DNA of 64,000 nucleotides, taken from contig JAYWIR010000064.1 of assembly GCA_036172245.1 (NCBI GenBank), positions 124,001 through 188,000 on the forward strand, given 5' to 3'. The stretch is from Raillietiella orientalis (lineage: Eukaryota). Positions 3,538 through 50,399 of this stretch are shown here, in pieces. A model generated the notes under the pieces. That model worked only from the letters and a program-made list of their open reading frames with translations, searched no databases and had not been told where the DNA came from. The first letter of the stretch is position 1. Each line of letters opens with the position of its first letter. The position numbers were made by a program, and so were the translations under genes.

Positions 3538-3895
3538 AGCAGTTCTACAAGATCAACGTCACCTCTTCTGCAAGCGTCACCCAATCTGATGCTGGGGTCC
3601 GCACGATATTGAAGTTACTTATTTATACTCGTTGTGCCCATGTATAAACGCTGAGTATAACGCGGCATTAACATTGTTAGCAGCAGGATCAGCACCGCAC
3701 CTTAAGAGCAACCTGGCAACTTTGCTATTCCTGCAATAACACGCCCAGTATAATCACCGTTATCGTTTTTTCTGTTCGCATCAGCACCATGCTTCAGAGG
3801 CAGTTCTGTAATTTTGCTATCCGCGTTATGGCGCAAGCTACGTATAATATGGGCGAATAATGCAGTACTCGTTTGTATGTTAATATTAGGGTTAC
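3538..3895 (-). pseudogene. Ankyrin-repeat gene fragment inserted in LINE copy 1
   Basis: Translates across frameshifts as NINIQTSTALF...ITELPLKHGADANRKNDNG...LLLRCGADPAAN...YRADP...GDACRRGDVDLVELL. It is AT-rich relative to its GC-rich flanks. Confidence 0.82.
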
Positions 3896-13300: not shown

Positions 13301-13759
13301 CCAGCCGGTGCGCAGGAGGTGGGGGATGCGTGCGTGCACGTGGTGAGGTCGTAGTCCGTGCGTGGCGCACTTTCGCTACCACGGAGATGAAGGGGGTCGC
13401 GTGTCTCTTCCGTCCCCAATCGACGCCTTCTTCGACAGTTCTTCTGCTTTGTGGTCTCAGCAACGGGAATCCTGAACGTTCCTGGAAATTCGACGGAATC
13501 CGTGCCTATCGTTCTTTGATTGTACTGCTATTTCCCGCTCGCACAAGTCTTCGGTGTGCGTGTCATTTTCGCTTTCCGGACCACGGACGCACTGACTTGG
13601 TCAGTGGAGAGTTTTTGCCTGTCGCTGTCTGCCCTTTCATTTTCACGTTGCTTGAGTGCCGTGTGTTTTCTTTGGTTGCACCTCGAAGTGTCTTCAAGGA
13701 AGGAAGGAAAACGGTTGGTGGTCAGACTTCAGTATTCTCAGTTCTGTGCAGGCATGTGT

Positions 13760-16630: not shown

Positions 16631-16639
16631 CGCCTGCGA

Positions 16640-22250: not shown

Positions 22251-22344
22251 ACACATGCTCTCGTGTCGAAAGTGCTGAGCAATCAGCAGTGCTCTCCCAG
22301 TTGAACCCGTAATTCGATCTTCCCCATCATTATGAGATCCTCAA

Positions 22345-22685
22345 CAGGTGCCTGGGCTTTGCACTCTCGGAGATGGCGGTGCGCCGCACCTGCGAAGACG
22401 GGAACCGGGCTACGCGAGTGTTCCGGTACAGGTCGAAGGAGACGCTCGTTGACGTTCCGAGATCGACACGCAGCTCCTCGGGCGGCGTCCGCAGAGACCC
22501 GAAGTTCCCTCCCATCCGCGCCCGTGGACCACCCTTGCCGCGCTCGCGCTTAATCCCCCCATCTTTGCACCGAAAGGAAGCCGGCGAAAAGCGGGGAGCC
22601 CGTCTCCGACAACTGCCCCCTTCCTCCATGGCCCTCCCGTCGCCGAGTGCTCGCTCGCAAGGGCGACGGACACTGGCTACCACCT
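22345..22685 (+). repeat. Diverged third copy of the 5' (putative ORF1) part of the GC-rich LINE
   Basis: Colinear blocks shared with 30255-30550: ctcggagatggcgg; cagagaccc.[ga]agttccct; atct.tgca.cgaaagga; gacaactg.cc(c)ttcc; ccctcccgtcgccgagtgc. Confidence 0.82.
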
Positions 22686-22687
22686 CC

Positions 22688-23176
22688 TTAATCAAAGGCT
22701 ATCTTTCTACTTCCATTTCCCATATCCTCAATTTCAACTTGAGGGGAAACAGATGCTAGGAAATCGTTATAGCTATAGTGATAGTCAGCAGAAAAGAATA
22801 TTTTTCCTTTAAACTCATGGAAGTCATTAGATAACGTTCCAATTTCTTCATCACCGTCAAATAATTTTACCTTAGTGAGATATGTTTGGCCGTTTACTCT
22901 AACTATTTCACCGTTGGAGTTTCTCTGTATGTGATAATCATCCGGATCGTGCTTTATAGCAAAAAGTTTATCAATGGGATATTGATCAAAATTTATCGGA
23001 CCTATATTGACATGCTTATGAGAATAATCCTTCTTTTCATATTCATGTGCAAATATTGGATATATATACTTATCTGGTGTATCGTCATATTCGTTGCCAT
23101 GGGCATCAACTGGCACCAGTTTATATATGTCATGCATTTGCACTAACTTGAGATGAGTAATACTTTTTGGTCCCAC
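22688..23176 (-). CDS. Uninterrupted AT-rich 162-codon ORF of unknown function, probably a foreign (viral or bacterial) gene fragment
   Basis: About 34% GC by hand count, against GC-rich flanks. The protein is rich in D/Y/I/K/H and looks like a genuine coding sequence. It starts at GTG (first ATG at codon 14). The ORF limits coincide with the composition shift. Confidence 0.7.
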   Translation of the reverse strand: MGPKSITHLKLVQMHDIYKLVPVDAHGNEYDDTPDKYIYPIFAHEYEKKDYSHKHVNIGPINFDQYPIDKLFAIKHDPDDYHIQRNSNGEIVRVNGQTYLTKVKLFDGDEEIGTLSNDFHEFKGKIFFSADYHYSYNDFLASVSPQVEIEDMGNGSRKIAFD

Positions 23177-23179
23177 TGC

Positions 23180-24660
23180 CTTCCTTACCGGAGCGCTGGA
23201 TCCGGCTTCAGCTTAGAATCTGTTCCCGGAACATTTTCCAGCCACTGGTGGCCACCGAATCCCGATGCCCCAGGGCAACCTCGAGATCTGGGCCACCAAC
23301 TCCTCGCGCCTCTCTGTAACCATTGTCTAGTTGTTGACGCACCCATGCGACCTTGCACTGTTCCTCCGAACCTCCTGCAGAGGCGATCCTGGTGAACCGT
23401 CCTTGTGGGCTCCGCCCTCGCGGGAGGTAGGTTGGGTTGCTCTGCGTCGATGAACCTGAAATATAGGGATGGAGGGTGTTGTCCACTGAAAAGAACATCC
23501 CCCAAAGCCCGATCCTGTCCAACGGAAGACGTGGTCCTCTACCCTCGATGAGGACGTTCTTCCATGAGGGATGTCCATGCTGCTCTCGCGATCATTTTTC
23601 CTGGACGTAGCCATTCAGTGCCATCAAGCAGGATTGAATGACAAATTCTGGAAGATAAGATAGCGGAGGAAGGTTCCATGTGCTCGCGGATGCGGAGATG
23701 AGTCTCTCGTTCATGGGGAAAATAAGCGCCGAAGAGCAGCCCAAGGAACCGAGTTTGCCTACTCTGCAGTAGATGCAAACTGGCCCTGACAAGAGTTTAC
23801 TTGGATCATCGAATAGAAGAACGGCCACGAAGGGAACTTCCTCCAGCAAGTAACGCCGATCGCCCCATCGGTAGGACGCGATCAAGGCGGATCGTGACGT
23901 GGAGACTGCGGGAGTCTGCAAAGACGGGATTTCCAAGCACCCGGACGTTACAGCTAGAACCCTTCCCACGGCGGGCTTGCGGCAAGCGTGGACAGACTCA
24001 GGACAGACACAAAATTTTCGAAGCGTGGACCTCGCCGAAGAATCAAAGCTGGGTGCGTAAGTTCATCCGCCCGTACCTCCATTGTGGTTGCGTCGAATGA
24101 GGCTTCTCGCTTGTTGAAAGAGGTCAAAGGTTCCAACAGGTGCCCTATCTCGACTCTTCCATCTCGTTTTCCGTGTGGCGGCCATCATATGAAATCTCGC
24201 ATGCCACGAGAAGTTTCTTGCGCGGCACTCTCTCATCATTCTATCTGCAGTCAGTCGTCGGAAGCGAACGCATGATACCATCCTCCGCCATCTTATCATA
24301 AAGATCGCCGTTTCCGAATTGTAACGGGTTGAATTAAAAGAACCTGGATGAACGCACAGCACATCGGCTTCCACCTCCGTGAACGGAAATCTCTTCCGTC
24401 ATGAGAACATTTGGACGTTTGATTATAGCAGTCTCCTGGTGAGCACTTGGGAGCACCTTGGCGTCGTTTTTATTGATGACGCGTTCTGAATGGGAGAAAA
24501 TCAGTGCCAATGCTGCTTTCTGTGGCTTTCGGCGTCGAAGGCCACCATAGTGTTTTTCTCGTAGCGTTTCCAGGGAATCAGGGTTTTTTGGACAGCCTAG
24601 ATGGCGCGCCTACACGAACACGAAGCGTGCTTGCAGTGTATGTGATCGCTCAGCGTGCGG
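23180..24660 (-). mobile_element. LINE ORF2 remnant (post-RT to first CxxC), related to the GC-rich LINE
   Basis: TLREKHYGGLR near 24545 and GPVCIYCRVG at ~23760-23786 parallel GGGGVG (~37955) and PFVCGACRRG (~38700) in copy 2, with similar spacing (~775 vs ~750 bp). Confidence 0.6.
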
Positions 24661-25169
24661 CGTCATGTACTGCCCACCATTAGCACTATTGGACTGTGCG
24701 TTTTCATCTAGCATCGATTCTTTGCACTCGGCAACAGCTCACCCACTGCATTCGTATGGCATTTTCGAATTAGTTATGCCGGTGACCTCCACATTTAGCC
24801 CTTTCGCAACCTTTTGTGATTGTTATGGTGGCAGTCTCCAGGATGCGTGACTTTCCTCTGGAGGAATTGAGTTTCAATCGCAGCTGCTCATCTGCTCCTC
24901 GTCCTTTCCTCTTCATCCACCCATTCTGGAGTTTGGTAAGTTGCCTCCCCAAACTGTTCAAGATGACGGGCGAATGAATTGCTCCTGACCCTATTATCGA
25001 GCTACGGTGCCCTCCAGTAAGTTTGGCAGAGGCTGGTTTTAGCTCCACTGCACCCTGAGAATACCACGGCGGAGTCTCGAAAGGCGACATGATTTCACAC
25101 TCGGGTGCGCAGGGGGGATTATTACTCTTACAGGGATCGATACAGCCATTAAGCCCACCGATTCTACCT

Positions 25170-26560
25170 ATTACACTAAAAAAAAAGGGGGGGAGAGGCC
25201 GGAGAGATCCATCACGTCAACGAAGGGGAAGAGAGATGAAACAGAAATAGAAAAAAAAAGAAACAAACTACAACAAACAATAGAAACTAACAAAAAAAAA
25301 ATTCGTTGAGGGGTAGGAAAGGGATCACATTCGTGGTGGATGTGGTCTCCGCATCCGTTGAAGGATACTGTCGAGCCTCTCCTTTCTACTTTCCAGGGGG
25401 GGCACCTTTCTGCGGACGAAGCCATCCGCAGGAAGCGTTGGAGTGCAGGGCAGCTCCCCTGTCGCTCCGTCCTCTCTCGGCGTCGCACTTCGCCGCGACC
25501 ACACCGCGCACGCAGCACAGCGCTGAGACTGCGCCTGTAGGCGTCATGGAGCCTGTACGAAGAGGAGCCTCGAAGAGTCTCTGGAACTGTCCATGGGGTG
25601 CAGAAGGGACGCGGAGAAACGTTCCCACAAGTTTCGGAGGGCGACGCACTGCACTATGAGGTGGGGGAAGGTCTCCTTCTCTCCACACCTGCCACAGTTC
25701 GGAGATGCACTTCCTCTCGTCCAGTGGTGCCGGCGTGCGTTGCACGGAAGACCCCAGTGCAGTATCAGCAACGCCGATTGCTGCCACTACAGGGGAAGCA
25801 GCTTACTATCCATAAATCAACTCTTCGGACTGAATGGCGAAGAGTTCGCCCTAACGTTCCAGTCCTTTAGAGACGGTTCTTGCTGTTGCCGCGTCAACCA
25901 GCTGACGCGGAATCCAGCCACCGATAGACTTCCTGCGGACCGAGATCTCTCAGGAAACTTCCCACTTCGCCGGTAGTCAGGTGCCATGTACCCCGGAAGT
26001 GGAGGATACCGATGCGGCTGAGGGGGTGGCTGGTGGGCAGGTCAACATAGTCAGCTCACTACCCACCGCCTCCAATGTTCTTCCGCTGTTCTTCTGAAAC
26101 TCTCAGCAGCGGGTAACTTCTGGAGGGTCCCGGGTAAACTGGGCCCACGTCCTCACTTTCTCTTGCCACCAGACCAGAGTGCTCTCAAGCAGGCAGGAAA
26201 TCCACGTGTTTGTTCTCACCAGAGCAGCGACACACCGGAGAGGGAAGCTTTTAAGATGGGAGCCGGCGGTGGTGACACGCAAACAGAGTTCTCCACCGAC
26301 CTCCAGCCGGGAGAGCGAACGTGAAGAACCGCACCAATGGGTGGCCCAGTTCTATGGCACGAAGGCCAGTCTTATGAAGTTCAGTTGAACTTCCATGCGC
26401 TCCAACGTCAGTAGCCTAAGTCCTCCATCGCGACGAAGAGGGCATAAGTCTTTTATTCGGACTCGGGACCACGGTGAGTTGCATCCGCGCCATCGTGATA
26501 TCCCGACCCTGTGTTGGAGTCAGACGCAGCGAAGAAAGCATCACCCACATGGTAGCCGAC
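25170..26560 (-). mobile_element. LINE 3' fragment (post-RT, zf-RVT, T-rich 3' UTR)
   Basis: WSRVRIKDLCPLRRDGGLRLL at ~26410-26472; CGRCGEKETFPHLIVQCVALRNLW in ORF 25544..25771-; T-rich tail at 25170-25300. Confidence 0.85.
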
Positions 26561-27299
26561 TGATAGCTGACCTCACTTGGAAGACAAGTGTCATATCGCC
26601 TGAGGTTCTGTTCCGCTACTCAGCCAGAAGGAAGGTCCCATTCCATACTCTCCTATCACCCTCCCCCCTTAACTTACTTATTGCCCCTTTCCCTTCCGCT
26701 TCGGACTGTCCCAGTAGACGGCTCGTTTGCTAGTGAATTCTCTTGAACTCTTTTCTTTTTGTTTACGGAACTGCGTTCCCAGCTTGTTTGCTCGTTTTCA
26801 TTAAATAAACGCCACGGTTTGACCGGGCAAAAAAAACATCGTCAGCAGAAAAATCTCCTTCCCCTTCTCCTTTATGGAACGATTCTTTTGGAACGTGCAC
26901 ACAGTCGATGGTCGCAATCGGTTTCCTTCCGCAGCTCGGCAGAACCCCTACTCACACTTTCCTGACATATATTTATTGCTAGGGTGCTCGTGAAAACTAT
27001 GTGGCGCGCAGCATGAATACGTGAACGTGGATCTATGCGGCGTGCTCGTAAACAGATTGAGAATCCACGAAATTCGTTCCGAATTTTTAGTGGATCGATT
27101 CTTGAACATCCGAAGCTACCGAGCACGCCAGCGACCACCGACTGAGCGCCAACAAATGTGATCCGATTGAAACGGTTGCGCACTTTCCATGGCCACCACC
27201 GTCTCGTGCTTCTCATTCCACGACTGTCTTGTTCCCTTGGCTGCTGAAGAGAGAAGTTCCCTGAAACGCGCCATCTCGAAGATTGAGCAGCACTCCGTC

Positions 27300-29200
27300 T
27301 AGAAAGAAAAAGATGCCCTCGTGGCTCAGGAAGATTCGAAGGGGGGGAAATCAGACTGACAGAATCTCTGTCGAAAAGTCTGTTCTGTGGAAGGCGCCAC
27401 TGCTTTCAGGTGCTGTCGGTGTACATTGGAAAAACGTTCTGGGCTCCACGAATTAGAATACATATTCATGAAGGACGTAAACGAATGTGGGGGAATGGTT
27501 TCCTCATATCCTCACTCAGTCTCTTCCTTCTACTGTTTTCATGAGATTTTTCCATTACCAACCTTCCAAAATGACATCCCAGGGAACATCGAATGCTTTC
27601 AGCGCATCGTTTGCTCCGCGATGCACCCCACCTATGCCTTGGGAATTTCCATTGCTCTAAGTGTTCTTTCATCGGTTTCAAGGTCCTGAAGATCCTGCTG
27701 CTGTTTCTTTCATTGTGGTGGCGGACGCTCCCCCCGAGGCGAAATAGAGAGTTAATTCTCCACACCGGCCCTCCTTTTTCCTGCCTTGCCGTTTTCAACG
27801 CCGCCGATGAATGCTCATAATCTGCCCTCTCTCTAAAGCACTGGATTCGTTCTTGGCCTTGGTTCCTGCTGTGGTCTGCTCGGAGGCTACCAACTTCCAC
27901 TGTTTCAATATATGTGTGTCGATGTAAAAAATTACCTTTTTTTGTCGCAGCAAGACCAGACATTGCACCATGTTGGTAGCAAATTGTAGTGCCTTCAAGT
28001 GTCAATCTCAGGACCATTCCTTCTGACGATCTTCTCACCAAAATATAGCATTGGTGCTTCATCCCTCTCACCTCAAATCAATTACAGTCGTACCATCTAT
28101 TTCCATGAAAGTTAGCACCGTCGGCATTGCTTCAACTGCAACTTGATCAGCCTTTTTTCCTTCACCAAAACCTTTTAACTTATACGCAGCAAGTGCTGCA
28201 GCGTCACCGAGTCACGCTGCGTGGGTGAACCTCCAGTCTGAGGAATTAAAATGTCTGTCGCCGTGCGGAAGACGACCTGAATTTTGATCCTCAACATTCT
28301 GATTCCCGGGACGTGATCTGTTGATCCGAATGTTTCTGAAAGGGATGTGCAGGACGTCTTGCGTTCCCTTGTCCTCAGACTCAATCCGATTTTCTTCCTC
28401 ATAAGCGAGCGACTATCATGGCGTCGCCAAACGTGATTCTGGGTAGATTTAATCCTCATTTTTCCGGACGCTTGCCTTCCCGCCACTGAGATATTTACCG
28501 TATTGCTACCGCTCTTCTGACACACATTGCATGAATCGATTTGGAAAAGAAGTCTCCCAAGTTTCCATTCACCACCTTTCTTTCACCAACGCCAGAGATC
28601 TCCATTAGAATATGTCATGTACTGCCCGTCAGAAGAAATTGGAACTTTGAAGAAACTCACAATCTCCAATCTATCAGCTTCTTCGGATAAGTTGGCTTAT
28701 AGCCACTCACTCCAAGGTCCTCGCGGTCGGAAAGATTGCATACCAAAAACACGATCATCATTGCAAAAGATGTGAATTCAGGAATGATGTGCTGAATTGC
28801 TGTTCGCAGCAATCTCTCCCCTGCAGATCCAGAGATGCTACTTATTGCTTCTCTGATTACAGATGGAAGCTGACGGAAACTGGGACGCTGTTCCCTGCAA
28901 GTTCATACTGCAATGTACTTCTTTTTCCGTCCGCATCTGCTGCTGCTCAAGGAAAGAAGAATGGTCATCCAGTGGGTTGCTTGTCATCGGAAACACCCCT
29001 GCAGAGTAAAGAAAACGAACCAAAAATCTCAATGCTCTCCTTATGGGGAAGAATCTTTACGTGACAGCCTTATCCCTGACATTTCTCTATGTAGGGTTCA
29101 AGAACCCCCATCATGAAGACATGAAGCAAGAACTGCATGTCTCACACCTATGCTTCGGGTTGTTACAAGCATCCATTATTGCCGAGATAAACACTAGAAT
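27300..29200 (-). mobile_element. Possible degenerate LINE endonuclease region
   Basis: LGDFF (GDFN-like) near 28550 followed by GSTDH (SDH-like) near 28320 on the minus strand. Weak. Confidence 0.3.
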
Positions 29201-32200
29201 CATAGATCAGAATGAAGTAAGCATCCAAGAAGAGCCAGAAGAAACCAACGCAATTGTGTATAGAAGCTTTGGAACCAACAAGTGAAAAATGAAAAGACAG
29301 CCCGCAACAGGCAAAAACTCTCCACTGACCAAGTCAGTGCGTCCGTGGTCCGGAAAGCGAAAATGACACGCACACCGAAGACTTGTGCGAGCGGGAAATA
29401 GCAGTACAATCAAAGAACGATAGGCACGGATTCCGTCGAATTTCCAGGAACGTTCAGGATTCCCGTTGCTGAGACCACAAAGCAGAAGAACTGTCGAAGA
29501 AGGCGTCGATTGGGGACGGAAGAGACACGCGACCCCCTTCATCTCCGTGGTAGCGAAAGTGCGCCACGCACGGACTACGACCTCACCACGTGCACGCACG
29601 CATCCCCCACCTCCTGCGCACCGGCTGGCAAACCGTCAACACTCGGAGCACCATCTTTCCTTCAGCGCCGTCACCGCTCAGGTCTTACGCAAAGTGTCAC
29701 TGCGACGAAGAAAGGCGCACCTCAGTCCCTGGCCTGCCTTCTCTTGGGAGCAAAAAAGTCCTCCTTTTCCCGAGAATCAAGCCAGACAAGGCAGCAGCCA
29801 GAACGACTCCCGGGCACCAGCATCCCTCAGCGTTCCCAGCCACTCACGAAGATGGCTCGCTCGAACATTCCACTCGGCTGTACCCAGCATCTCCGCAAAT
29901 CCAAACCAAGGGGTACCCAGTCGTCGAACCCCTTCTTATTTCGAATCGGGAGGACCTCGGCAGCTTCGCTCGTCTTCGCAACAGCTGGAGCGTGATCCCC
30001 AGTACCTGATTCTCACGATATTGAATCGGGAGCGCGGAGCGAATCGGGCGAGGCCCCGTGGGGATTTGCCTTCGTCGGCGAAGGATATCCAGAGAGACCA
30101 AAGAGAATCCGGCCGACACCAAGGGAATTCTCTCCCAACTGACCGTTTCCTACGAGACCGGGGTCACTCGTAATTTCCACAGCGCGTGACATGAGAACTC
30201 TGGCTGCCCCGAAAGGGAACTCCCGGGAAACCGGGAAGAGTGCCGAAAAGGTGTGCCTGGTCTTCCCGCACTCGGAGATGGCGGCGCGCTGTGCCCGCTA
30301 GCATGGGGACCCGACTACGCGGGCGTCCCGACGCCGATCGGAGCAGGCGCTCGTTGGCGCTACAAAGTCCACACTCAACCCTTCAGAGACCCGGAGTTCC
30401 CTTTCATGCGCGCCCACTTATCCCCCTATCTATGCATCGAAAGGATGCGAGCGAAGACCGAGGAGCTCGTCCCCGACAACTGACCCTTCCGCTATGTCCC
30501 TCCCGTCGCCGAGTGCATGCGAGAGCGACGGACTCCCAGTACAACCGATCCCCCCCCGCCCCCTGGGAATTCAGTGCCACAGTCGCGGCTCCCTCGGGCT
30601 CCGTGTCTTCGTGACCGAACGATGCTACGGCGATGCTTCTGGCGCAGAGAGAGTTTCCGTGGACGCAGCCAACCAGCAGGCTCCAGCTTCGTGTCCGATC
30701 CTTGCCACCTCCGCTTCTCCCGTGTCTCCTCCCTCTTCCTCCCATACAGGGAAACGATTCCACCTCCACGCAAGCTCCCGTGACGCACACCGCTGAGTGC
30801 CGTGCAGCACAGCTTACCTCCTTACCAGGCTGCCCGCCGCCTCCTCCCAAAGCGCCTTTTCCACGCGCAAGTCTGCTCTCGCGGGACAAAAGAACAAGGC
30901 CCCGTCCCGCGTTCGGCCTGCGAAGCGCCCCTCCGACAGCGGAACGGCACCGGTGAGCCTGCCCGGCGTGCCCGACGCGTGCTCCCCCGACCGTCCCACC
31001 CGACGTCGCTTCGAGGCGAAGCTCGCCTTCGGCGAAGAACGGTCCGCTGGCGTCTACGCCGAGGTTTCATGGCAGGCCACGCAAACGGAGAGTCGGCTGG
31101 CGATGGCGCGCGCCCTCTCCCGCTTTCGCAAGGTTTTTGGAAAGCCTATGGCACCCGCTGCTCCGGACGTGCTCGGAGCAGCAGCGGAAGACGCCCGTGC
31201 CCGCGTGTGGAACTGCCGGGTGCGAACGGAAAGCCGAGAGAAAAAGCCGCTGGCATCCGCGCACCACCGCATCGTGCACCAGGAAGAAGAAGACTGCGAG
31301 ATCGCCCCGCAACGACTTGGCGGGAGAGGCGTGCCTGCGCTTCGCGGGCTGCCCGCTTCGATGGAGAGCGCGGCACGAGTCCGAAGACTGGCGGGTTAAG
31401 TCGTCCGAGACGCCCGCGCGCCCGCCCACTGACGGAACGACCGACCGCACGAAACGGGGCATCGGAAGCGGAATGCAGAAGAGCTGAGAGAGGACTCGGC
31501 GGAGGGCCCGGTGGGGAGCAGCAGCGTCCAGAACGTAGCGGATGCCGAACTCACGGACGTGCGAACGGAAGCGGGACGGAGAGGCGCGTGTGCGCCGGCG
31601 GCAGGCAAAAGTTGGACCCGGAAGCGGCGGGGTCGCAGGGGTTGCGGGCATGCGTTCCTGCGCGTTGGTGGCGGGCTGACGCACGCGCGCGCCAGAACGG
31701 CTCCGACGAGCGGGACGGCGCCATTTCGCGCGCAACAAACGACGCGCGCGCGACTGCGGCTGCGGAGGAAGGTGTTGGCTGGTTGGCGTGCGCGCCGTGG
31801 CCGCGGTCCCCTCGCGAGCGAACGGCGATCACTGAGCGCGCGCTTCGACGCGTGGCAGCGGCCGCACCTTCGTCCGTGCAGCGATCGTCTTCGCGGAACG
31901 AAAGCGAAAGTCTTCCTTCCATCCTCTCCCGTCGCGAATGCGATCGCCCCGGGCGCGGCTACGTTGCGTGCACCCGACAGGGGGCGCACCTCTCGCGCTG
32001 CCCGTGGGTCCGCTTGCGCGTCCACGCAGGGCACACCCGGGAGCGGCGCCTAAATGCCCGCTGCCCGAGCACGCAGGCCTCGGCCCGCCGTGTCGGCGGC
32101 AGGCCGAGGCTGGCGGAACGCGCAGGTAGAGGGGGAATCGGACGTCTGCCGTGCCTCTGGCGGAAGGCCGTCGCGGCGGCGAACAGGCACCGGCCTGTGG

Positions 32201-32939
32201 ACGCCGTAAATCGGCATTTCGACGAGCGAGCGCCCATCCGTCATGGCGACGCGTCTCCCCGCGGCCAGGCGCGCGTTGCGAGCACGACCTTCTCGCGTCC
32301 TCGGCCAGCGACTGGGCCGCGTCCGCCGATCGACCGCGGTGCACGCGTCTCCGGCAGCCTTGGCGAGGTCGTCGTCGCGCCACCCGCCTTCGCTCTGCTG
32401 CCCGGTGCGTTGCAAGAAGCGCGTTGGCGCGGTCGCTCGCCTGGCGCAGGCTGCGGGAAGAGGCACGGACGTCGGGCCGTGTTCGGAGCCGCCAAACACC
32501 CAGTTGCGAATCTGCGCACGCACCACCGTCGAAGCCGCGCCCCGTACATTTCCGTGCTTCTCCCGGTGTGCACTCCGTCTCGTGCGCGCGCGCTCCCCAT
32601 TTTCCGGTAGTTTTGCGCGCATCCGCCAGGAGGGGGGGAGGCGGCTACACGTGAGCGTTTGCTGATGCGAGGGGCGGTCCGACCCTCTGCAGACTCGCGC
32701 GTCTGTCACGACGGTTCCGAAACGATCCGGGATCGCTTCGCTGATGCGGAAGGGCCTCTTCGCTTGCGGGGTCCGGAAGGCTGCGCCTTGTTCCCTTCGC
32801 TCGGCAATCCGCCGACAGACGAATGCAGCGCCATCTCCGAGCGGAAGCGGAAACTGGCGAGCGGCGAGACTCGGCATCTCCGTCGGCTGCGTGCTCGTCG
32901 CCACGACGCCTGCCCAATGCCGCTCTCTGCGGAGATGCC

Positions 32940-33720
32940 CCAAGCGTCTCCCCACGGGAACACTGAAGCCGCCCGTCGTTCGGCAGAAGAGCGCCACGCC
33001 AATCTTCCTGCGGACGGACGAGGTGACACTGCCCGGACGGCGAGCGCGCGATCGAAAGCGGGAAGCGCCCTCTTGCCGCCGCCGACTCGTTCGCCAAGCA
33101 GGCGGCACTCGCCCACATCGGGAACGCGCGCACACACTCTTGCGCCAGGGGAGGCCACTGTGCGCCCGGCTCAGGAGCGCGGCTCGTGCGCAGCGCCGAG
33201 AGGAACGAACCAACGAAGAGAATGGCCCGAAGGGAAGGGCCGTGCGGTGGTCGGCAGGACACGCGGCAGAGGAAGAAGAAATAGACGTGTGCTGGAGCGT
33301 GGAGTAGGGGAGCTTCGACCGGGTCGCCTGTCGTCGAGCGCGTGCCGAGCATCTCGTGCTGTCCTCCGGCCGCGCTCCGCGGCGCTGGACGTCTCCCACG
33401 GCGACGCGAACGCTCACAGCGATCTCGGAGGCTACGGAGAGCACGTCTGCCTGCGTGTCCGTGAAAGAGGCGGCACTCGCGCGCTCGCCCGCGCCGACCG
33501 CTCCCCATCTCCGCACGCTAGCCTGTCGGCTTCCGACTCGAGCTGCTGCCGCGGCGATGGCGCTCAAGCGACACCGTCCGAGGGCTTCACGGAACACTCT
33601 GCCGTTCCCGAGAGGCCATCCGTGGCGTTGCGGAAGGGAGGCAGATGCGCTCTTTGTTGCGATGGACGACCGTCGGCAGGCGAACACGGAGCGTCGACCG
33701 CCATACGCTTCGCAGGCTGC
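32940..33720 (+). pseudogene. Degenerate APE endonuclease domain of LINE copy 2 (mirror ~9215-9995, minus)
   Basis: HGDANAHS (GDFNAH) at 33397-33420, EADALFVA (RIDYIFVS-like) at 33638, SVDRH (SDH-like) near 33690. Confidence 0.55.
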
Positions 33721-35635
33721 TGGAGCAGCAAACGGTATCGCTCCCGGCGCTGAGCACAGCAGCGAGGATTCCAGCCGAACGCATTCCCGCTTCCGGTGGG
33801 CGTGGAGGATCGCTCGGCAGGGAAGGGGTGCAGAAGCGAGTCGCTGGATCCGTTTCGCGAGTGCCCTTCCCAGGGAACACGGGAGAGCGTTTGTGACACG
33901 AGCTGCCTTGGCATCCGCTCCGATGCGGACGGTCCGCTTTGCTCTGCAGGGGGAGGCACGCCTTCGGACCTCGGGCTAGATGCGCCCGCGACGAAGCTTC
34001 CCGCCGTCCCTGTTGCGTCTGAGACACATTGGAGGGGGAGGGGTAGCTTCCTATCCTTCGCCCAAGGGGCTGCACGTTCCTCGGGCAGGGATGCGGGCGA
34101 CGCGTGCACGGTCGGGTGCCGCACGAGAACTTCCGGACAGCGCTGGGGTGTTTTTCCATGCACCCGGGGGGGCGAAACCGTGGCTGCAGGACCTCCTGCT
34201 TCTTGCGCGATTCCCACGGCGCTCGCACCTCGACGCCGGGAGTCGCCAATGCTGCGCGCGACTTGCAGCGCCCGCGCTGCGCCGTTCGCAAGGAGGAGTG
34301 CTCCCCCGTCGGAGCGGCGTCATCGGCCGAGACCGACGGCAGGTGCAGCCCGCGACCGGAGAGCGGAAACGCGTCCACGATGCGGGCGCCTGGACATTCG
34401 TCTTCTGCACTCTTCGCGCGCCTCGACCGCAGCTGCTGCCTCCTGGTGCGTCGCGCGACGCGGCTGCCTCCGCCGTTTCGGCGTTCCCTTTGCGGGAGGG
34501 CGCACGGATGAAAGGGCGTTGAGTTTCGGGCTGCACCCCCACAGAGTGTCGACACGGAGGAAAACGGCCGCCGGCCACCGGCACCAATCCGTGCATGCGT
34601 TGGGTGGGCGCTCCGTCCGGCGTGGCACGACCTCGCCGACGGGGTGTTGCGTGCAGCGCGGGCTGCGGCGCGCCTCCCCGAATTCGCGTTCGCCGTGTTC
34701 TGTCCTCGGGAAAGACGGCAGTAGGCGCAGCGGGGGGCCGCACTGGCCAAGGTTTTATCGTGAGGAGTGGGTTGGTAGGAGGAAGGGGGTGGCTGCTGAG
34801 GAAGGACGCACGGCCGCCGGCTCCACGGTCGGAGGTCTCGTTCTTGGAGGAAGGCTGGGAATGCGGGAGTGCAGTCGGTCAATCCTGGTTTTGACCGCGA
34901 CGAGGAAGGCGTGCGTTTCTCCTCCCACCTGCCTATCCAGAGACGGTGCGCGTGCCTCCACGTGCGGGCGCACGAGCATCGGCATCTCTCGCTGCCGTTT
35001 CCCACTCGCCGCCTTGTCAGCGCGTGCGTGCCGGGGGAGTAGGCGTACCCCCGTAGGCCTCCCCGTGGCCACCGCCACCACCAACAGACGAGGGCGACTC
35101 AAGTCCTCTGGCCGCATGTCGCAGCGCCGTCCGCTAGCCCGTCGAGTGCGGTGACCAGTCGGAATGGCCGCTCGCTCCGCTTCCTGCCCGCCTGCCGCGG
35201 CTCGCCAATCCGCGCGGTGAGACTGCTCGACCTGCGGTGAGTGAACCCGCAGGCGAGTCTGCAGGCCGCTTCTCGCCGTTCACGGGTGTCCGCCTCTCCG
35301 CCTGCGCTCAAGAAACGTATCTTGGCGTTGCGCTCGCGCCTCCGCGTGCGCAGCAACAGGGTGGCGCCGCTTCCGCGCTCCGCCCGTCGCTTGCGCGCTG
35401 CGCCAACCGCTTGCTGCTGCCCCTTTCGCAGCTCCACGGCGTTTCAAGCCTCGTGGAAAAGGGGGCCGGCCCTCCGGATGACCTTCGTCTTGGAACCTTG
35501 TTCGGACCTTACATGTTAAAACGGTCCAACGTTGTGGCGGTAGCGCCCGCCTCGGGCAACATTCGCGGACGCAAGCAGACCATGGATTGGTGGAGCACCA
35601 GCAGCAACGAAATGCTTCGCGGTCGTTCCCGTCGC

Positions 35636-36900
35636 GGAAAGGCGCCGTTGTGCACCGGTGAGTCAGCATCCCGTCCGATGCATGCGTGCGTAGCCGTTTG
35701 TTCCGCGCCTGCAGATGCTGCGTTGCTGCACGCGGCGTAGTCGCGGTCGGGCCGGAGAGGCGGATTGCGGTTGCCGCCGGCAGAGTGAGTTGCCGCCGGC
35801 TGCGACAGCACCTGGCTCCGAGCGTGAACGGCAGCACGCAAGTACAGGCAAGCAGGGGGGGTCTCCGGCGCAGTACGGAATCGCCAGGGGCAGCCACACC
35901 GGGAAAGGGAGGGAAGAAGGCGTCGAGCGTGGAGGCGGCATGCGTCGCCGTCATCTCCTTCCAGGCGAATCCCCCTGCCGACAAGTGGGAGTTCTCTGCG
36001 ACCGTACCTTTCCTCTGACGATGGCGCTTCTTCTGCTCCTCGTTCAAGTTCACACGTGGCCCGCACGTGCTCGCGTGCTCTCCGCCCTCTTTGTGCAGCA
36101 GGGAGCAAGCAAGAGGAATTGCTTTCGCCCAAGAAGTCCCCTACTCCAGGGGGGAGACGCGTTCCGCTCCGGAAGAGGCTGCGATACCAGCGCACCGTTC
36201 CCTCGGGACAGTAACCGACCTGGTAAGGAGCAGCGGACAGTGCCGAAGGAGGGAGCGGCAGTTCGTCCGTCGGTGTACGGCGGCGGAAGAGTCCGCTCGT
36301 CTCGCGTCCGTCGGCGGAGCGCCTCCGTCCGACGGACGCGAGATGTGAATCAGCCGGTGGTCCACGCGGCAGCGCGAACCGGTCGCCCCTGGAGAGCGCA
36401 CGCTCCGGTGTGCTGTTCGACGTGGGCAGCGTGCGCATCCCCCCTTCCCCCGCTGCAGCTCGCTTGCCTGGCACGCTGCAGGGGAGCGCATCTCCAGTCG
36501 TGTGACCGGGTTCGCGCTCGTCCTGGATGTTTCGGATCGATTTCGCGGACACCGTAGTCCCGGGATGCCCGGTGCACTGGGCAGCGAGCGTCGTGTGCGC
36601 GGAGGTTGCACGCCGCGAGCAGCTGGACACGCTTTCGTGCGTTTTCCCGTCGCAGCTGCTGGACCGTCCCGTCGGCGATCATGCGGTTTCTTGCGTCGCT
36701 CGCGCGGCTGCAACGTTCCCGTCGCCGGAGGCAAGGCTGCCGCTTGCCCTCCGCGTTGCTCGCGTCTCGCTTGCGCGCAGCGAGGTCGCCGTCGCCGAGT
36801 ATTCGGCAATTGCGCGAGCTCCCGCGGCGCCTGCGCACCGGCTCGGGAGGTGGCGCATCGCCTGTCCCGCTGTCCTCCGGCCGAAGGTTCCAGGTGGCGC
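35636..36900 (+). pseudogene. Degenerate reverse transcriptase domain of LINE copy 2
   Basis: GKAPLCTG 35636; LRPYLS 35996 (RPISL); NCFRPRS 36117 (Q.GFRPGRS); DLVR/AADSA 36217 across a 1-nt frameshift (DL.KAFDSV); GTLQGSASP 36470 plus FALVLDV 36511 (QG.PLSP.LF.LV.D). The YADD equivalent is ambiguous (FADT 36542 or VGDH 36671). Confidence 0.7.
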
Positions 36901-39034
36901 AGGATTTCGCCGATGGGACGCCCCGCGGCCTAGGCGGAGCCGAAACTGTTACGCGCTCCTCGATCTCTACCACACGCGGCGGCCGTCCGTCCATCTTCCC
37001 GGATGGCGGCGTTTCCTGCAGCACGTCGAAGAGGCGGCCGCGTTCCCGCGTTGGCTACGCAAAGCGCTGCAGCGCAGGTTTTGCGACCGGACGACGACGA
37101 CCCGGAGAGAGATCAGCGCGTGCGCGGAAGAACATAGGCCGTGAGATCAGTGCCATTGGTGCTGGTGCGCAAGGTTGAGGCCAGCACGTGCGCACGGGTG
37201 GGCACGCAAAACGTTTGCCTGTGCGTCGGAGAACCTCTGCGGGAAGGCGTGGCCTTCGCGGGTGTCGCGTAGCGGAAGGCGAGCGCGTAGGTGAAGGTCG
37301 CTGCGCGCTTTCTGCGCGGAAGACCGTGGAAGCGACTTCTTGTCGTGCCAGCGAATGAGGAAGTGGTGCGTGGAGCGTTCAGTATCTTACGCCGTCACTT
37401 CGGCGGGTCGCTGGTTGGAAAAGATGATCGGGAGAATGCTGGGAACTCCGTTCCCGGGAGAAGAGAAGAAAAGTTCTGCGAGAACGACTGCCGGTGGCAC
37501 GGGTGCCGTGTCCGTGGGAAATGAGCAGCGGTGGGGAGGGTACGTCGCAGGAATCAAAAAGGAGTGGGGAGTTGGGAAGCGCTCTTTTCTTTGTCGTTGC
37601 GATGTCGAGTGCTGGCGCTCCCCTTTGCTGCTCCTCTGTCCGCGAAAGGCACCTCTGATCCGCCTGTGACCCTCGGACAGGCGGGTGTCCTCCTTTCGCA
37701 GCTCCCGGGCCTCCGGCGCATTGCGTGCTGCGATGGTGGCGCGGATGCAGCGTACCGTCGGCTGGTCACGGTGGCTCGTGACGAGAGTCCGCCGCTCCCG
37801 CAGAGGCCGTGTCGGTTCCTCCCGGATTCGGCGGGGGTGGCGGAGGCGGGCTCGTTCTCAGCTGCTTGAAGGTGCGCTGCAGTCCGGCAAGTGATATGTA
37901 GGGTCAGTTGGGACATCCCGCACTGCGGATAGCTCGGGGAGGCCGGTGGAGGAGGCGTCGGGCGGCGATGACCTGATGCCGCGCGTTGCACTACCGCCCC
38001 GTTGCGAGCGCCGCAACGTCTTCTTCACGGTCGACCGACTCGCCCGCCTGCAGCATTACGTGGAGGAGAAGGAGAGGGAAGCCGGCAGGCGAAGCGCGGG
38101 AGACGGGGAGGTGTCCTCGACCTACTCGACTGCCTGTTCGGCAGGAAATCGGGGGAAGGACCTGGTTCGTGACGTGCAATGGCGGAGGTGGGGCGTGGAC
38201 GCAGGTGGCGACCTTCCTGCGGCTTTTCCCGCTGGGGCTGCGCGCGTGGATGCGGAGCTGGGGTCCGAGCTGTTACTTCGGCGTTGCCGCGATTTGCCAG
38301 CGAGTGGCGCCCGTCTGTGATTCTGCTGGGATTTTCGCAGCTTCCTTGTCTGCAAATATTCCGTGTTTTGCGCTCCTGTCCCCAACTTCCACGATCGTTC
38401 CTCTCCCCGAGACCTGGGACACTCATGTCCGTCGCCGAGGAAGGGCACGCGCGGCCCTCGAGCCTGCTGGTGCTCCCTCGTCGCCCGTACGTGTCTTCGC
38501 GCCTCGAGGATAGCTGCCGGGGGCAAGCGCGGGAGCTGGCCCGCTTCCGTTGCGGGAAGGGGGGAGAAGGGTGCGGTATTACTTTCGTGCCTTCGCGCTC
38601 TCTTCCGGGCGCGCAGCCGCGGAGCGCATCGTCTAACGGGCAGGTCGTGGGCGGTACGGGAGCGACGGGTGTTGCCCGATGGCAAAGGTCTTCGTCCCCA
38701 TTCGTCTGCGGCGCATGCCGCCGAGGAGACGGAGGGCAAAGTGCATGGAGGCGTGCTGGTCAAGGGGACTTGTCGTTGGCAGGGCAATCGAATGTCTAGA
38801 CATTGGGTTCCGATTCCCCTGCTCTGATGAGGCTTCCTTGCATCGCAGGCCGTTCTTACTTCGGAAGACGCAACGGAAAGGGAGAGGGGAAGAGGAAGCC
38901 GATCTGCTGCCTAAAGTGGATGGCCGAGGCACTCCGGGCTGAGTGGCTCGCAAGAACAGGCAGTCGAGGATCGCTGAGGGAGGCGGCCCGCTTCCCCGGG
39001 GGAGGGAGGGCTCCGACCGTGACGGATACGAGGC

Positions 39035-39392
39035 GTAACCCTAATATTAACATACAGAGCGAGTACTGCATTATTCGCCCATATTATACGTAGCTTGCGC
39101 CATAACGCGGATAGCAAAATTACAGAACTGCCTCTGAAGCATGGTGCTGATGCGAACAGAAAAAACGATAACGGTGATTATACTGGGCGTGTTATTGCAG
39201 GAATAGCAAAGTTATAAGTTGCTCTTAAGGTGCGGTGCTGATCCTGCTGCTAACAGTAATGCCGCGTTATACTCAGCGTTTAGTGATGGGCACAACGAAA
39301 TTATAAAATTGGGACTTCAATATCGTGCGGACCCCAGCATCATATTGGGTGACGCTTGCAGAAGAGGTGACGTTGATCTTGTAGAACTGCTC
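39035..39392 (+). pseudogene. Ankyrin-repeat gene fragment inserted in LINE copy 2
   Basis: ELPLKHGADANRKNDNG, then LLLRCGADPAANSNAALYSAFSDGHNEIIKLGLQYRADPSIILGDACRRGDVDLVELL. About 44% GC by hand count; no start or stop of its own. Confidence 0.87.
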
Positions 39393-39649
39393 TCGAGCGC
39401 CCTCCGGGCATTCCCCGTCCTGAACGAAGTGCCCTCGCGAGCGCTTTGGTGATGGTGCTCTTCCTGCGTACAGTTGGTGACATCCCCTTGTGCCTTTTTG
39501 TTTGACCGATTGGACACGACGAGCTCGAGAACGCCGGACCCCCCTTCGTACCGGGAGAGGAAGGAGGCACAACGGCAGGAAGAGGATCGGAGGATGTGCG
39601 CTCGCGCGAGTGTGGCGACTTTTTTCTTTTTTTCTTTCTCAGCCTGCGT

Positions 39650-40240
39650 CGATTGGGCGGCCTATCCGGACGGCTCCGTAGTCGCTGACAAAGGGGTGTA
39701 CCGCGCTCAGCATCCCGGAACGGGACGGTGGCTGCGTGCGTCCCTGCCGTCGGTTGCGGCACTCAGCCAGTCTTTGAGCGATCCCTTCCGCTGGTGTTCC
39801 CCGTGGTACCGGGTCTAGGCTTCTCCTTTTCCTCTTGTGCGCTGGGTGGGTCGGTGAGCGCTCGTTATATGGGTGGCGCTGCTTCGGTCCGGTAGGTGTG
39901 CGCTCGGCGGCGAGCGCCCTCTGCAGTCCTGCAGAGTGCGCTCTCTTCCGCAGCCGCATTCTGGCTTCTGTTCTCGCACTGCAGGGGTGGGACCGAGCGG
40001 TGACTCTGGACACGGGGAGGGAGTATGGGGTGCACGTTCCGGCTGCCTGGAGACGGTTGCGGCACTGCTCATGTGGCGAACAGTCGACGGGACCGCTTGG
40101 AATCGACGGTGAGGAGGTCGACTTTCCGCCTGCCCACGATGTCGAGGTTGAACGCGCCCGTTGCCTTCGAAGGAAGGCTGATGGACGATTCCTGCAACGG
40201 CACCGGGGCTGAGAGAAGAGGCAATTGGCACCTGCGCTCC
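39650..40240 (+). pseudogene. Possible degenerate RNase H domain of LINE copy 2 (mirror ~2690-3280, minus)
   Basis: AAYPDGSV (YTDGS-like) at 39657-39680, then PAECAL, and FPPAH (WVPAH-like) near 40125. It lies between the RT and the terminal zinc finger. Confidence 0.45.
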
Positions 40241-41419
40241 GTTTCCAAGGAGGCCTCAGCTCCAGCGAGGGTGATCGTCGTGGGATCAAGTGTGTGCTCC
40301 GGGGCCTTTGCTGGCCGGGAGGGCCTTCAGGAATGTCGTGACGGGGATCCAAATAGGAGATGGCTGCAGGGCTGGCGAGCCGATGGAGCGCACGTGCCTG
40401 CCGTACGGCAGCCTGACGGGTGCTCGGCTGCGTGACGTACGGCCGGCAACCGTGGGCGTCTGGCCCCCGGTTGATTGCGGTCGTCCGGACGACGAACCCT
40501 GAAGAATCCGTCCGCTCCACTGCACTGCGCGAACCGTGGTGCTCCTTCCTCTTCGCGCGCAGTCTCTCGCTCGCAGCTCCCCAGTTCGAAATGCGAAGCG
40601 CTCCCGGTGCTCTGCCAGCTGTGGCGTCGCGTCCTCGTTCCTGGGCTGCCACGCGCGCACGCTGATCTCGCGGACGTGCTCCTGGGTTCCTGAAAACGAA
40701 AGCGAAAGTTCGAACGGCTTCCGTTTCCATTTTGGGTTTCTGCCGGAGCGCAGCGCGAGATGTCGTCTGCTTTTTCTCCGGACGAGTCACGTCGCCAGGA
40801 AGACCGACCTCTGAATGTCGCTCGGTCGTCGGCCGCGTGTTTCGCAGCGTCGTCGCGCGCCCTGGTGAAAGCCTCTTTGGGGCGCGGTGCCGGCGGTCCT
40901 TCGATGGGTGCGTCGTTAGTCGGAGGTTCTCCTTGTATGCCGAGCGACACTCGCTGATGGTCTGCGGCAGCGCGTGGTGGTTGGCGCGCGGGGGAGGAAC
41001 GCGCTCTGCGCGAGCGCTTCTTCGACTCGGTCGCGGGTGTGTGTTCGGTGTGGGGGTTTCGGCCGGTGGGAAGAAGTGTCGTCCTGCCCGTGCGTGGTCG
41101 GACGGCAGCTCCATCTGCGCGTATGGGCCGGCTGTGTGTCCAGGCGAGCAGGCGCGCTCGGAGCACGTGCTGAAAGACTGCACACTTGGACTCTTGCCGA
41201 AATGTGTGGGATGGGGAGCAATGGTGAGATTCAGCGCGGAAGTTGAGGAAGAGTGGAAGCGCGTCTTCGTTCGCGTGTGTGTTGGCGTCCGCGGCGCCTC
41301 GGAATCCGTGCGAAGAGAGCGCCTCCGCTCGGTGATTGTCGGCTCGGTTTTGCGTACCGCGCAAGCGATCCGTGATGGTCGCTGCAGCCACGGTCTCTCT
41401 CCACCGTGTTGTGGGTTGC

Positions 41420-50370: not shown

Positions 50371-50399
50371 CACCTCCTCGTTTTGTGCACGTGGTAGAA

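What the first reader, a model, noticed from the sequence alone, without database searches (positions are those of the whole stretch)
22688..39392. Candidate cargo-capture site: two unrelated AT-rich gene fragments in the same linker of related LINEs
Seen: an ankyrin fragment (~44% GC, 39035-39392, mirror 3538-3895) and a different 162-codon ORF (~34% GC, 22688-23176) each interrupt a GC-richer LINE ORF2 remnant, in the same sense as ORF2. The two host remnants share the order GG(L)G motif, then ~750-775 bp, then P.VCxxCRxG (PFVCGACRRG at ~38700; GPVCIYCRVG at ~23770). The insert follows ~330 bp and ~600 bp after that CxxC respectively. Both inserts are 350-490 bp, with no evident promoter context or target-site duplication. 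Known: non-LTR RTs can template-switch onto other RNAs, and LINE-mediated integration of non-retroviral viral RNA is documented. Inference: this LINE family may have a hotspot that captures foreign (giant-virus or endosymbiont) sequence and then spreads it, acting as an archive of invader fragments.
Basis: partly seen in the sequence, partly recalled or inferred. Interest (0 to 1): 0.85.

Follow-up and report, generated by a model that had tools for sequence, protein, structure and literature searches.

The report
Wolbachia DNA relics, not LINE cargo

Summary
They are not unrelated, because both derive from Wolbachia. The ORF piece (22675-23171, minus strand) is 79-87% identical in DNA to Wolbachia genomes. 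The ankyrin piece (39037-39391, mirrored at 3538-3894) is 81% identical to a Wolbachia DnaJ-ankyrin gene. A third piece (27922-28205) is a frameshifted fragment of the Wolbachia core gene glpX. In Wolbachia genomes the three source genes lie more than 300 kb apart.

The LINE part of the finding fails. No reverse transcriptase, endonuclease or RNase H domain was detected in either "host remnant". The GC-rich flank has no codon-position signal, and its long ORFs follow from 68% GC and strong TpA depletion. No target-site duplications were found.

The ankyrin piece occurs twice only because it lies inside a 12-kb inverted duplication. The best reading is nuclear Wolbachia transfers ("nuwts"), a known phenomenon. 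One feature keeps RNA-mediated capture barely alive: piece 1 directly abuts a truncated 324-bp repeat.

The parts
22675..23171 (-). Wolbachia-derived piece 1. It is about 497 bp with 34.8% GC. It corresponds to an internal region of a Wolbachia hypothetical protein, which in one genome is part of a 1139-aa ORF with an N-terminal Peptidase_M9-like domain. The reading frame is still open.
   Evidence: the best protein hit is a Wolbachia hypothetical protein at 67% identity, E 1e-62; three loci at 72-75% aa identity; 79-87% nt identity, with 38 of 60 Wolbachia-genus genomes matching. One search gives the Peptidase_M9-like domain; both junctions are sharp.
22688..23212 (-). Stop-to-stop ORF of 174 codons that contains piece 1 and runs about 40 nt into non-Wolbachia sequence at its 5' side.
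   Evidence: codon-position differences to the best homologue are 19/13/26 of 164 each, with one 6-nt in-frame gap.
27922..28205 (-). Wolbachia-derived piece 2. It is a 284-bp fragment of glpX (class II fructose-1,6-bisphosphatase) and is frameshifted by three indels.
   Evidence: 58 of 60 genomes match, best 79% nt; 78.6% identity over 304 columns to L010; the homologous ORF is FBPase_glpX, E 7e-122, and TIGR00330 above its cut-off; indels of 1, 14 and 6 nt, and codon-position differences of 8/11/26.
39037..39391 (+). Wolbachia-derived piece 3, right-arm copy. It is a 355-bp fragment of a DnaJ-ankyrin gene with 43.9% GC, and it is frameshifted.
   Evidence: 81% nt identity to G052, E 2e-89; the homologous ORF is 471 aa with DnaJ and Ank domains; frameshifting gaps are shared by both arms, and each arm also has gaps of its own.
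3538..3894 (-). Left-arm mirror copy of piece 3.
29286..41277 (.). Right arm of a 12-kb inverted duplication. Its partner is 1652-13643 and the spacer is 13644-29285. This duplication explains why the ankyrin piece occurs twice.
   Evidence: 99.03% identity over 12,013 columns; 125 differing columns, which are clustered.
1652..13643 (.). Left arm of the inverted duplication.
22348..22671 (.). A 324-bp dispersed repeat copy that ends 4-8 nt from Wolbachia piece 1. The other copies are at 30253-30533 and, mirrored, at 12399-12679. This is the only sequence shared between the neighbourhoods of the inserts.
   Evidence: 67% identity, E about 2e-30. Smith-Waterman score 154 against a shuffle maximum of 28. 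No Rfam or tRNA match.
25547..25786 (-). The only LINE-like trace in the region. It is a weak zf-RVT (LINE ORF2 C-terminal zinc knuckle) relic, 2.3 kb upstream of piece 1 and not contiguous with it.
   Evidence: E 4.3e-4, 21.3 bits, below the 27.5-bit cut-off. E 5.3e-4. No RVT_1 domain was found upstream of it.

Best explanation
The AT-rich inserts are nuclear Wolbachia transfers (nuwts). These are short pieces of DNA from a Wolbachia endosymbiont that were joined into the host's nuclear DNA in a gene-poor, repeat-relic region and are now decaying as pseudogene fragments.

Three pieces from three unlinked Wolbachia genes lie within 17 kb: a hypothetical or M9-like protein gene, glpX, and a DnaJ-ankyrin gene. 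The ankyrin piece was already frameshifted when a 12-kb segment containing it was duplicated in inverted orientation, which gave the mirror copy.

Shown: the Wolbachia origin, the sharp junctions, the pseudogenisation of two of the three pieces, the duplication, and the absence of detectable LINE coding sequence around the pieces.

Inferred:
- Integration was at the DNA level, by end joining at chromosome breaks as for NUMTs.
- The pieces arrived either as separate small insertions or as remnants of a larger insert later broken up. I cannot tell which.
- The host is an arthropod or nematode. This rests on the known host range of Wolbachia.
For: Origin:
- Piece 1 gives 5 protein hits at E<=1e-3. 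The top two are named Wolbachia proteins at 67-69% identity.
- Three genome loci, two of them titled Wolbachia, match at 72-75% aa identity.
- DNA identity is 79-87%.
- In one search, 59 of 60 Wolbachia-genus genomes matched something in 13600-29300. By my count of the rows, 38 hold piece 1 and 58 hold the glpX piece.
- The ankyrin piece matches G052 at 81%, E 2e-89, and G058 at 70%. In all, 7 of 60 genomes show any match, and 5 of those are only 29-52 nt.
- The homologous ORFs are glpX (Pfam E 7e-122; TIGR00330 at 324 bits against a 259 cut-off), DnaJ+Ank, and a 1139-aa ORF with Peptidase_M9.

Nuclear and relic status:
- Homology stops abruptly at all six junctions, and the flanks have no Wolbachia similarity.
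- The glpX piece has 3 indels.
- The ankyrin piece has frameshifting gaps shared by both arms.
- The source genes are far apart in Wolbachia: 277 kb, 851 kb and 1,657 kb in G052, and 1,195 kb, 543 kb and 10 kb in G058.

Eukaryotic context: a U2 snRNA match, an LSU rRNA fragment and a zf-RVT relic.

Precedent: short, interspersed, inactivated Wolbachia fragments in nematode nuclear DNA are described in PMC4046930 (passages read).
Against: - No reads could be laid, so the junctions rest on the assembly alone (one search listed no runs).
- The host genome is not held. Copy number and the flanks of other nuwts are therefore unknown.
- Piece 1 keeps an open frame of 162+ codons. If all 58 differences from the best homologue were neutral decay, this would occur in only 4-9% of simulations. 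It may be young, its donor may be unsampled, or it may be under some constraint.
- Piece 1 abuts a truncated repeat copy within 4-8 nt. Simple random insertion does not predict that.
- DNA-level integration is inferred, not shown. Ioannidis et al. (PMC3849323, Discussion passage) raised RNA-mediated transfer for Brugia nuwts.
Confidence: 0.8

Rival explanations
1. RNA-mediated capture. A non-LTR reverse transcriptase switched template onto Wolbachia RNA during retrotransposition, producing chimeric inserts.
For: - On the minus strand, piece 1 in gene-sense orientation is followed within 4-8 nt by the 324-bp repeat copy.
- The far end of that copy (22348) coincides with the end of the other copy (30253), while its near end is a truncation.
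- That is the layout of a 5'-captured RNA fused to a 5'-truncated element. Such chimeras are described for LINEs in PMC2104539 and 10.1101/2025.02.02.635956 (search listing and abstract starts only).
- RNA-mediated nuwt origin was suggested for Brugia in PMC3849323 (passage).
Against: - The repeat and the sequence it continues into show no RT or other TE domain on either strand. 0 of 80 minus-strand chunks and 0 of 63 plus-strand chunks gave one, and the long ORFs gave none.
- There is no A-rich or microsatellite tail at 22348.
- No target-site duplication of 6 nt or more flanks the putative chimera or any of the three pieces individually. Only isolated shared 7-mers turned up beside pieces 1 and 3, displaced from the junctions and at about the chance rate.
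- Pieces 2 and 3 have no such neighbour, and their flanks share nothing with those of piece 1.
- The only LINE relic (zf-RVT, 25547-25786) lies 2.3 kb away.
Confidence: 0.07
2. Assembly artefact or contamination. Reads from a live Wolbachia infection were mis-joined into host contigs.
For: - No read evidence was available.
- The two palindrome arms differ in clustered small indels, which could partly be consensus errors.
Against: - The pieces are only 284-497 bp and are 13-21% divergent from the best of 60 species-level Wolbachia genomes.
- Two of the three are frameshifted.
- The ankyrin piece is present in both arms, with shared and arm-specific changes.
- Nothing else in 13.6-64 kb matches Wolbachia.
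Confidence: 0.04
3. Piece 1 is a domesticated, expressed host gene or exon of Wolbachia origin rather than a neutral relic.
For: An open frame of 174 codons in 35% GC sequence. Under purely neutral decay of 58 substitutions it would stay open in only 4-9% of simulations.
Against: - It is a fragment of a larger bacterial ORF with no Pfam domain.
- The differences are not significantly biased toward third codon positions: 19/13/26, chi-square about 4.4 on 2 df by my hand calculation.
- There are no neighbouring genes or recognisable exons.
- The divergence can equally predate the transfer.
Confidence: 0.05

Closest known systems
Nuclear Wolbachia transfers (nuwts), or Wolbachia 'genomic fossils', in nematodes and arthropods. 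Examples are Dictyocaulus viviparus (PMC4046930) and Brugia malayi (PMC3849323). PMC5541319 states that most transferred genes are neutrally evolving fossils (abstract start only).
   Same: Short fragments of unlinked Wolbachia genes are interspersed with host sequence. They carry frameshifts and indels, they are AT-rich islands, and one was duplicated after transfer.
   Different: The host is unidentified here. One piece sits inside an unusual 68%-GC non-coding block that forms the arms of a 12-kb palindrome. One piece still has an open frame.
NUMTs/NUPTs: organelle DNA inserted into nuclear chromosomes by end joining. This comparison is recalled, with no call behind it.
   Same: Small, non-contiguous donor fragments with sharp junctions and no target-site duplication, followed by neutral decay.
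   Different: The donor is a bacterial endosymbiont. The integration mechanism was not tested here.
LINE template-switch chimeric retrocopies: U6/L1 chimeras, and the MINE chimeras of Magnaporthe (PMC2104539; 10.1101/2025.02.02.635956; listing and abstract starts only).
   Same: Piece 1 lies collinear with, and directly 5' of, a truncated repeat copy.
   Different: No RT-encoding element, no 3' tail and no target-site duplication. Pieces 2 and 3 lack any such partner.
Endogenous viral elements that accumulate with retrotransposon relics in piRNA clusters of mosquitoes. This comparison is recalled, with no call behind it.
   Same: Foreign fragments lie in a gene-poor graveyard of TE relics.
   Different: The donor is bacterial, and no small-RNA data or cluster annotation is available.

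Membership tests
nuwt (nuclear Wolbachia transfer) | Significant nucleotide or protein similarity to Wolbachia genomes | tested here: met
   The three pieces match at 79-87%, 79% and 81% nt identity, with E values from 2e-89 to 7e-176.
nuwt (nuclear Wolbachia transfer) | Physically contiguous with non-Wolbachia, eukaryotic sequence | tested here: inconclusive
   In the assembly all six junctions are sharp and the flanks are non-Wolbachia. The window carries a U2 snRNA match, an LSU rRNA fragment and a zf-RVT relic. No reads were available to confirm the joins.
nuwt (nuclear Wolbachia transfer) | Fragmentary, with inactivating mutations, rather than a live-symbiont genome | tested here: met
   The pieces are 284-497 bp. 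The glpX piece has 3 indels. The ankyrin piece has shared frameshifting gaps. Piece 1 is a fragment but its frame is still open.
nuwt (nuclear Wolbachia transfer) | Direction of transfer is bacterium to host | tested here: met
   glpX is present in 58 of 60 Wolbachia-genus genomes as a full 315-aa gene. The window holds only an internal 284-bp piece of it.
LINE / non-LTR retrotransposon ORF2 (the claimed host sequence) | Reverse transcriptase domain (RVT_1), with or without endonuclease or RNase H | tested here: not met
   No such domain was found in 82 ORFs, 29 ORFs, six read-through frames, 111 chunks or 80 chunks. The only hit is a sub-threshold zf-RVT at 25547-25786.
LINE / non-LTR retrotransposon ORF2 (the claimed host sequence) | Coding signal, or homologues of the ORFs carrying the CxxC motif | tested here: not met
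   GC is equal at all three codon positions in every long ORF of the arm. The 156-aa ORF gave 1 spurious low-complexity hit among 1.84 billion representatives. The 208-aa ORF gave 0 hits among 686 candidates.
LINE / non-LTR retrotransposon ORF2 (the claimed host sequence) | The two host copies are homologous to each other | tested here: not met
   BLASTN and TBLASTX gave no alignment of 23180-24660 to 37900-39030. BLASTP gave E 1.9. The Smith-Waterman score was 29 against a shuffle mean of 22.9, reached by 2 of 100 shuffles, and 24 against 23.2 in the other orientation.
LINE template-switch chimera | Captured sequence fused 5' to a truncated LINE 3' part, with a tail and a target-site duplication | tested here: not met
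   Adjacency holds for piece 1 only. The partner is not identifiable as a LINE, has no tail, and no duplication of 6 nt or more flanks the chimera.
piRNA-cluster trap of foreign fragments | Dense small-RNA production from the locus | not testable with these tools
   No sequencing runs were listed.

The most novel reading that the evidence does not exclude
The locus is a trap for endosymbiont nucleic acid. At least piece 1 would have been copied from Wolbachia RNA by a retroelement reverse transcriptase that switched templates, which would explain why it sits collinear with and flush against a truncated 324-bp repeat. The gene-poor, TE-relic-rich, palindrome-bearing region would then act like a piRNA cluster that archives Wolbachia fragments and could produce small RNAs against the symbiont.
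Probability: 0.06. Interest if true: 0.7.

Novelty: new member of a known kind. Interest (0 to 1): 0.2.

Why it matters
- Nuwts record a present or past Wolbachia infection of the host lineage.
- They can give false positives in PCR or read-based Wolbachia screens.
- They are raw material for rare functional transfers.
- The case shows that AT-rich "gene islands" in GC-rich repeat DNA can be endosymbiont relics, and that long ORFs in 68%-GC, TpA-poor DNA should not be read as transposon genes.
- It adds no new mechanism.
- The open 174-codon frame of piece 1 and its flush junction with a repeat are the only features worth a follow-up once the host genome is available.

Tried and rejected
- The whole genome of the window is not held.
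- Sequencing runs: none was listed for 21800-24300, and no RNA holder was listed.
- Earlier findings of this scan: nothing by place or by sequence.
- Phage records gave no match for piece 1 as protein or for the ankyrin piece as DNA. I cannot say whether the source genes are prophage WO cargo.
- The zf-RVT ORF searched against longer proteins gave 0 hits among 25 candidates, so the LINE clade and the host taxon were not identified.
- Read-through translation of 5-6 kb frames lost even the known Ank and zf-RVT hits. I replaced it with 150-aa chunks.
- Other AT-rich stretches (13700-15100 and 19150-21450) are not Wolbachia. They gave 0 of 60 genomes, and 1 of 60 with a single 30-nt hit. Their ORFs look like noise. 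Low GC alone does not mark foreign DNA here.
- The repeat ORFs at 16688-17368 and 59888-60586 look non-coding and were not pursued.
- I rejected a giant-virus origin for the inserts, because the best matches are Wolbachia.
- I rejected the idea that the GC-rich arm is a decayed high-GC bacterial gene block, because it has no codon-position signal and no Pfam hit.
- I considered fetching a whole Wolbachia genome piecewise for a local TBLASTX, listed the regions and did not fetch them. Very decayed extra pieces below BLASTN sensitivity could therefore remain undetected. Each genome search also scored only 5-6 first-look candidates per genome.
Full report
CONTEXT

The window is gene-poor eukaryotic DNA.
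- Rfam finds only a diverged LSU rRNA fragment (45477-45958, minus strand, 64.8 bits) and a U2 snRNA match (61754-61920, 54.2 bits).
- ARAGORN finds no tRNA.
- Pfam finds essentially nothing. Among 82 ORFs of 80 aa or more in 13.5-30.3 kb, the only hits are a sub-threshold zf-RVT and a weak DUF6939. Among 125 ORFs of 70 aa or more in 41.3-64 kb, the only hit is a sub-threshold Relaxase_M.
- The dominant structure is an inverted duplication. Positions 1652-13643 pair with 41277-29286 at 99.03% identity over 12,013 columns, around a 15.6-kb spacer. The 125 differing columns are clustered.
- Most of each arm is 64-70% GC.

THE OBSERVATION

- The minus-strand ORF at 22688-23212 is 174 codons stop to stop, and its core has 34.8% GC.
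- The ankyrin-like stretch at 39037-39391 has 43.9% GC. It is broken by frameshifts and stops and scores Pfam Ank at E 5e-5, above the curated cut-off.
- Its mirror at 3538-3894 is simply the other palindrome arm.

WHAT THE PIECES ARE

Piece 1 is Wolbachia DNA.
- Of 22 candidates, 5 proteins scored E<=1e-3. The two best are named Wolbachia hypothetical proteins at 67% and 69% identity.
- Three genome loci encode relatives at 72-75% identity. Two are titled Wolbachia endosymbionts and one is a Rickettsiales MAG.
- BLASTN aligns 22679-23171 at 79-84% identity, and at 87% to the best of 60 Wolbachia-genus genomes.
- In that best genome the region is internal to a 1139-aa ORF whose N-terminus matches Peptidase_M9, E 7e-13.

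The ankyrin piece is also Wolbachia.
- It is 81% identical (E 2e-89) to a 471-aa DnaJ+ankyrin ORF of genome G052, and 70% identical to G058.
- The other 5 of the 7 matching genomes (of 60 searched) gave only 29-52-nt hits.

A third piece turned up when I searched the whole spacer.
- Positions 27922-28205 are a fragment of glpX. By my count of the rows it is present in 58 of 60 genomes, with a best identity of 79%.
- The homologous ORF is FBPase_glpX at E 7e-122 and TIGR00330 above its cut-off.

Nothing else in the window matched Wolbachia.
- 29300-44000 gave only the ankyrin piece (2 of 60 genomes).
- 44001-64000 gave 0 of 60 genomes.
- The AT-rich stretch 13700-15100 gave 0 of 60, and 19150-21450 gave one 30-nt hit.
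- These searches scored only 5-6 candidates per genome and work at the DNA level, so very decayed pieces could be missed.

STATE OF THE PIECES
- All six junctions are abrupt.
- The glpX piece has indels of 1, 14 and 6 nt and is frameshifted. Its substitutions against the best homologue fall 8/11/26 by codon position. Much of the divergence therefore arose in bacteria, under selection, in a donor lineage not close to any of the 60 references.
- The ankyrin piece has two frameshifting gaps shared by both arms, plus arm-specific small indels. It was already a pseudogene when the 12-kb segment was duplicated.
- Piece 1 has one in-frame 6-nt gap, and its substitutions fall 19/13/26. If all 58 differences were neutral decay, the frame would stay open in 4-9% of simulations. 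This is mild evidence that it is young or that its donor is unsampled.
- The source genes are hundreds of kb apart in Wolbachia: 277, 851 and 1,657 kb in G052, and 1,195, 543 and 10 kb in G058. In the window they lie 4.8 and 10.8 kb apart.

THE LINE CLAIM

No reverse transcriptase, endonuclease or RNase H domain was found in any of the following:
- the long ORFs of the arm;
- six read-through frames;
- 111 chunks of 150 aa covering 23174-27000 on the minus strand and 36500-41451 on the plus strand, at E<=0.1;
- 80 chunks covering 30200-36500 on the minus strand.

The positive controls inside these scans, Ank and zf-RVT, were recovered.

The arm has no coding signal.
- GC is the same at all three codon positions in all 18 ORFs of 250 aa or more.
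- TpA observed/expected is 0.42 and CpG observed/expected is 1.18.
- The overlapping 600-aa ORFs on both strands are therefore a composition effect.

The ORFs carrying the CxxC motifs have no relatives.
- The 156-aa ORF with GPVCIYCRVG has one hit among 1.84 billion representatives, a low-complexity repeat protein at E 2e-4.
- The 208-aa ORF with PFVCGACRRG has none among 686 candidates.
- The two ORFs align at BLASTP E = 1.9, and the alignment does not pass through the CxxC.

The flanks do not align.
- BLASTN (word size 7) and TBLASTX find no alignment between 23180-24660 and 37900-39030.
- Smith-Waterman scores are within the range of shuffles.
- 600-bp flanks of all three pieces share nothing with each other.

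The only LINE trace is a sub-threshold zf-RVT at 25547-25786 on the minus strand. It lies 2.3 kb from piece 1, with no RT domain upstream.

ONE LOOSE END

The only sequence shared between the insert neighbourhoods is a 324-bp repeat, 22348-22671, about 67% identical to 30253-30533 (E 2e-30).
- It ends 4-8 nt from piece 1.
- Both copies share the end at 22348/30253, and the copy next to piece 1 is cut short at the junction.
- Read on the minus strand, this gives Wolbachia sense sequence followed by a truncated element. That is the layout of a template-switch chimera.
- Against this reading: the element has no recognisable retroelement features, no tail, no flanking duplication of 6 nt or more, and the other two pieces have no such partner.
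- I keep this as the novel case at about 6%.

COMPARISON WITH WHAT IS KNOWN

Short, interspersed, inactivated Wolbachia fragments in host nuclear DNA are well described.
- The passages I read in PMC4046930 (abstract, introduction, results, discussion) describe them for Dictyocaulus viviparus. They note that inserts range from whole genomes down to fragments at the limit of detection.
- PMC3849323 (passages) describes multi-copy nuwts in Brugia malayi and speculates in its Discussion that the transfer could be RNA-mediated, possibly through retrotransposition.
- PMC3798261 (passages) gave nothing specific on the integration mechanism of Wolbachia DNA.
- LINE template-switch chimeras are documented in PMC2104539 and 10.1101/2025.02.02.635956 (listing and abstract starts only).
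- The comparisons with NUMTs and with viral fragments in mosquito piRNA clusters are recalled, not looked up.
- I did not search for, and make no claim about, whether nuwts of this particular host are in print. The host is unidentified.

VERDICT

The finding is a correct sighting of foreign DNA with an unsupported mechanism attached. What is there is three Wolbachia relics, four copies in all, in a repeat graveyard, one of them copied by a segmental inverted duplication. This is a new instance of a known phenomenon, and interest is low.

Noticed in passing
window 1652-13643 and 29286-41277: A 12-kb inverted duplication (99.03% identity) around a 15.6-kb spacer. Its 125 differences are clustered, for example 25 in 30000-30099 and 20 in 39200-39399. 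This could reflect patchy gene conversion or consensus errors. It is a genuine palindrome-like structure rather than a fold-back, because a long spacer is present.
   Followed up: partly
window 30200-41500 (mirror about 1400-12700): An 11-kb block of 64-70% GC with no tandem repeats, no codon-position signal and no Pfam domain. TpA o/e is 0.42 and CpG o/e is 1.18. It sits in a background of 35-55% GC and nearly coincides with the palindrome arms. Its origin is unexplained. GC-biased conversion between the arms is one idea, and I did not test it.
   Followed up: partly
window 45477-45958 (-) and 61754-61920 (+): A diverged fragment of eukaryotic LSU rRNA (64.8 bits, model positions 956-1444) and a low-scoring U2 snRNA match (54.2 bits). 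Both are probably pseudogenes.
   Followed up: no
window 16782-17476 and 59901-60581: An inverted pair of a roughly 700-bp repeat at 94.7% identity. The 227-233-aa ORFs across it look like non-coding translation and have no Pfam family.
   Followed up: partly
P0005: A 114-aa 'unnamed protein product' of the butterfly Parnassius apollo, on a 2.7-Mb contig, matches the C-terminal part of piece 1 at 84% identity. The same Wolbachia gene may therefore also lie as a fragment in that insect's assembly.
   Followed up: no
L011 2082-5498 (genome G018) versus P0001 and P0002: The Wolbachia gene that donated piece 1 is a 1139-aa ORF with a Peptidase_M9-like N-terminus in one genome, but is annotated as 149-249-aa proteins in others. 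The gene is variably split or truncated among strains.
   Followed up: no
window 25200-25340 (- strand): A T-rich, low-complexity run just downstream of the zf-RVT relic on the minus strand. It is not a poly(A) tail.
   Followed up: no
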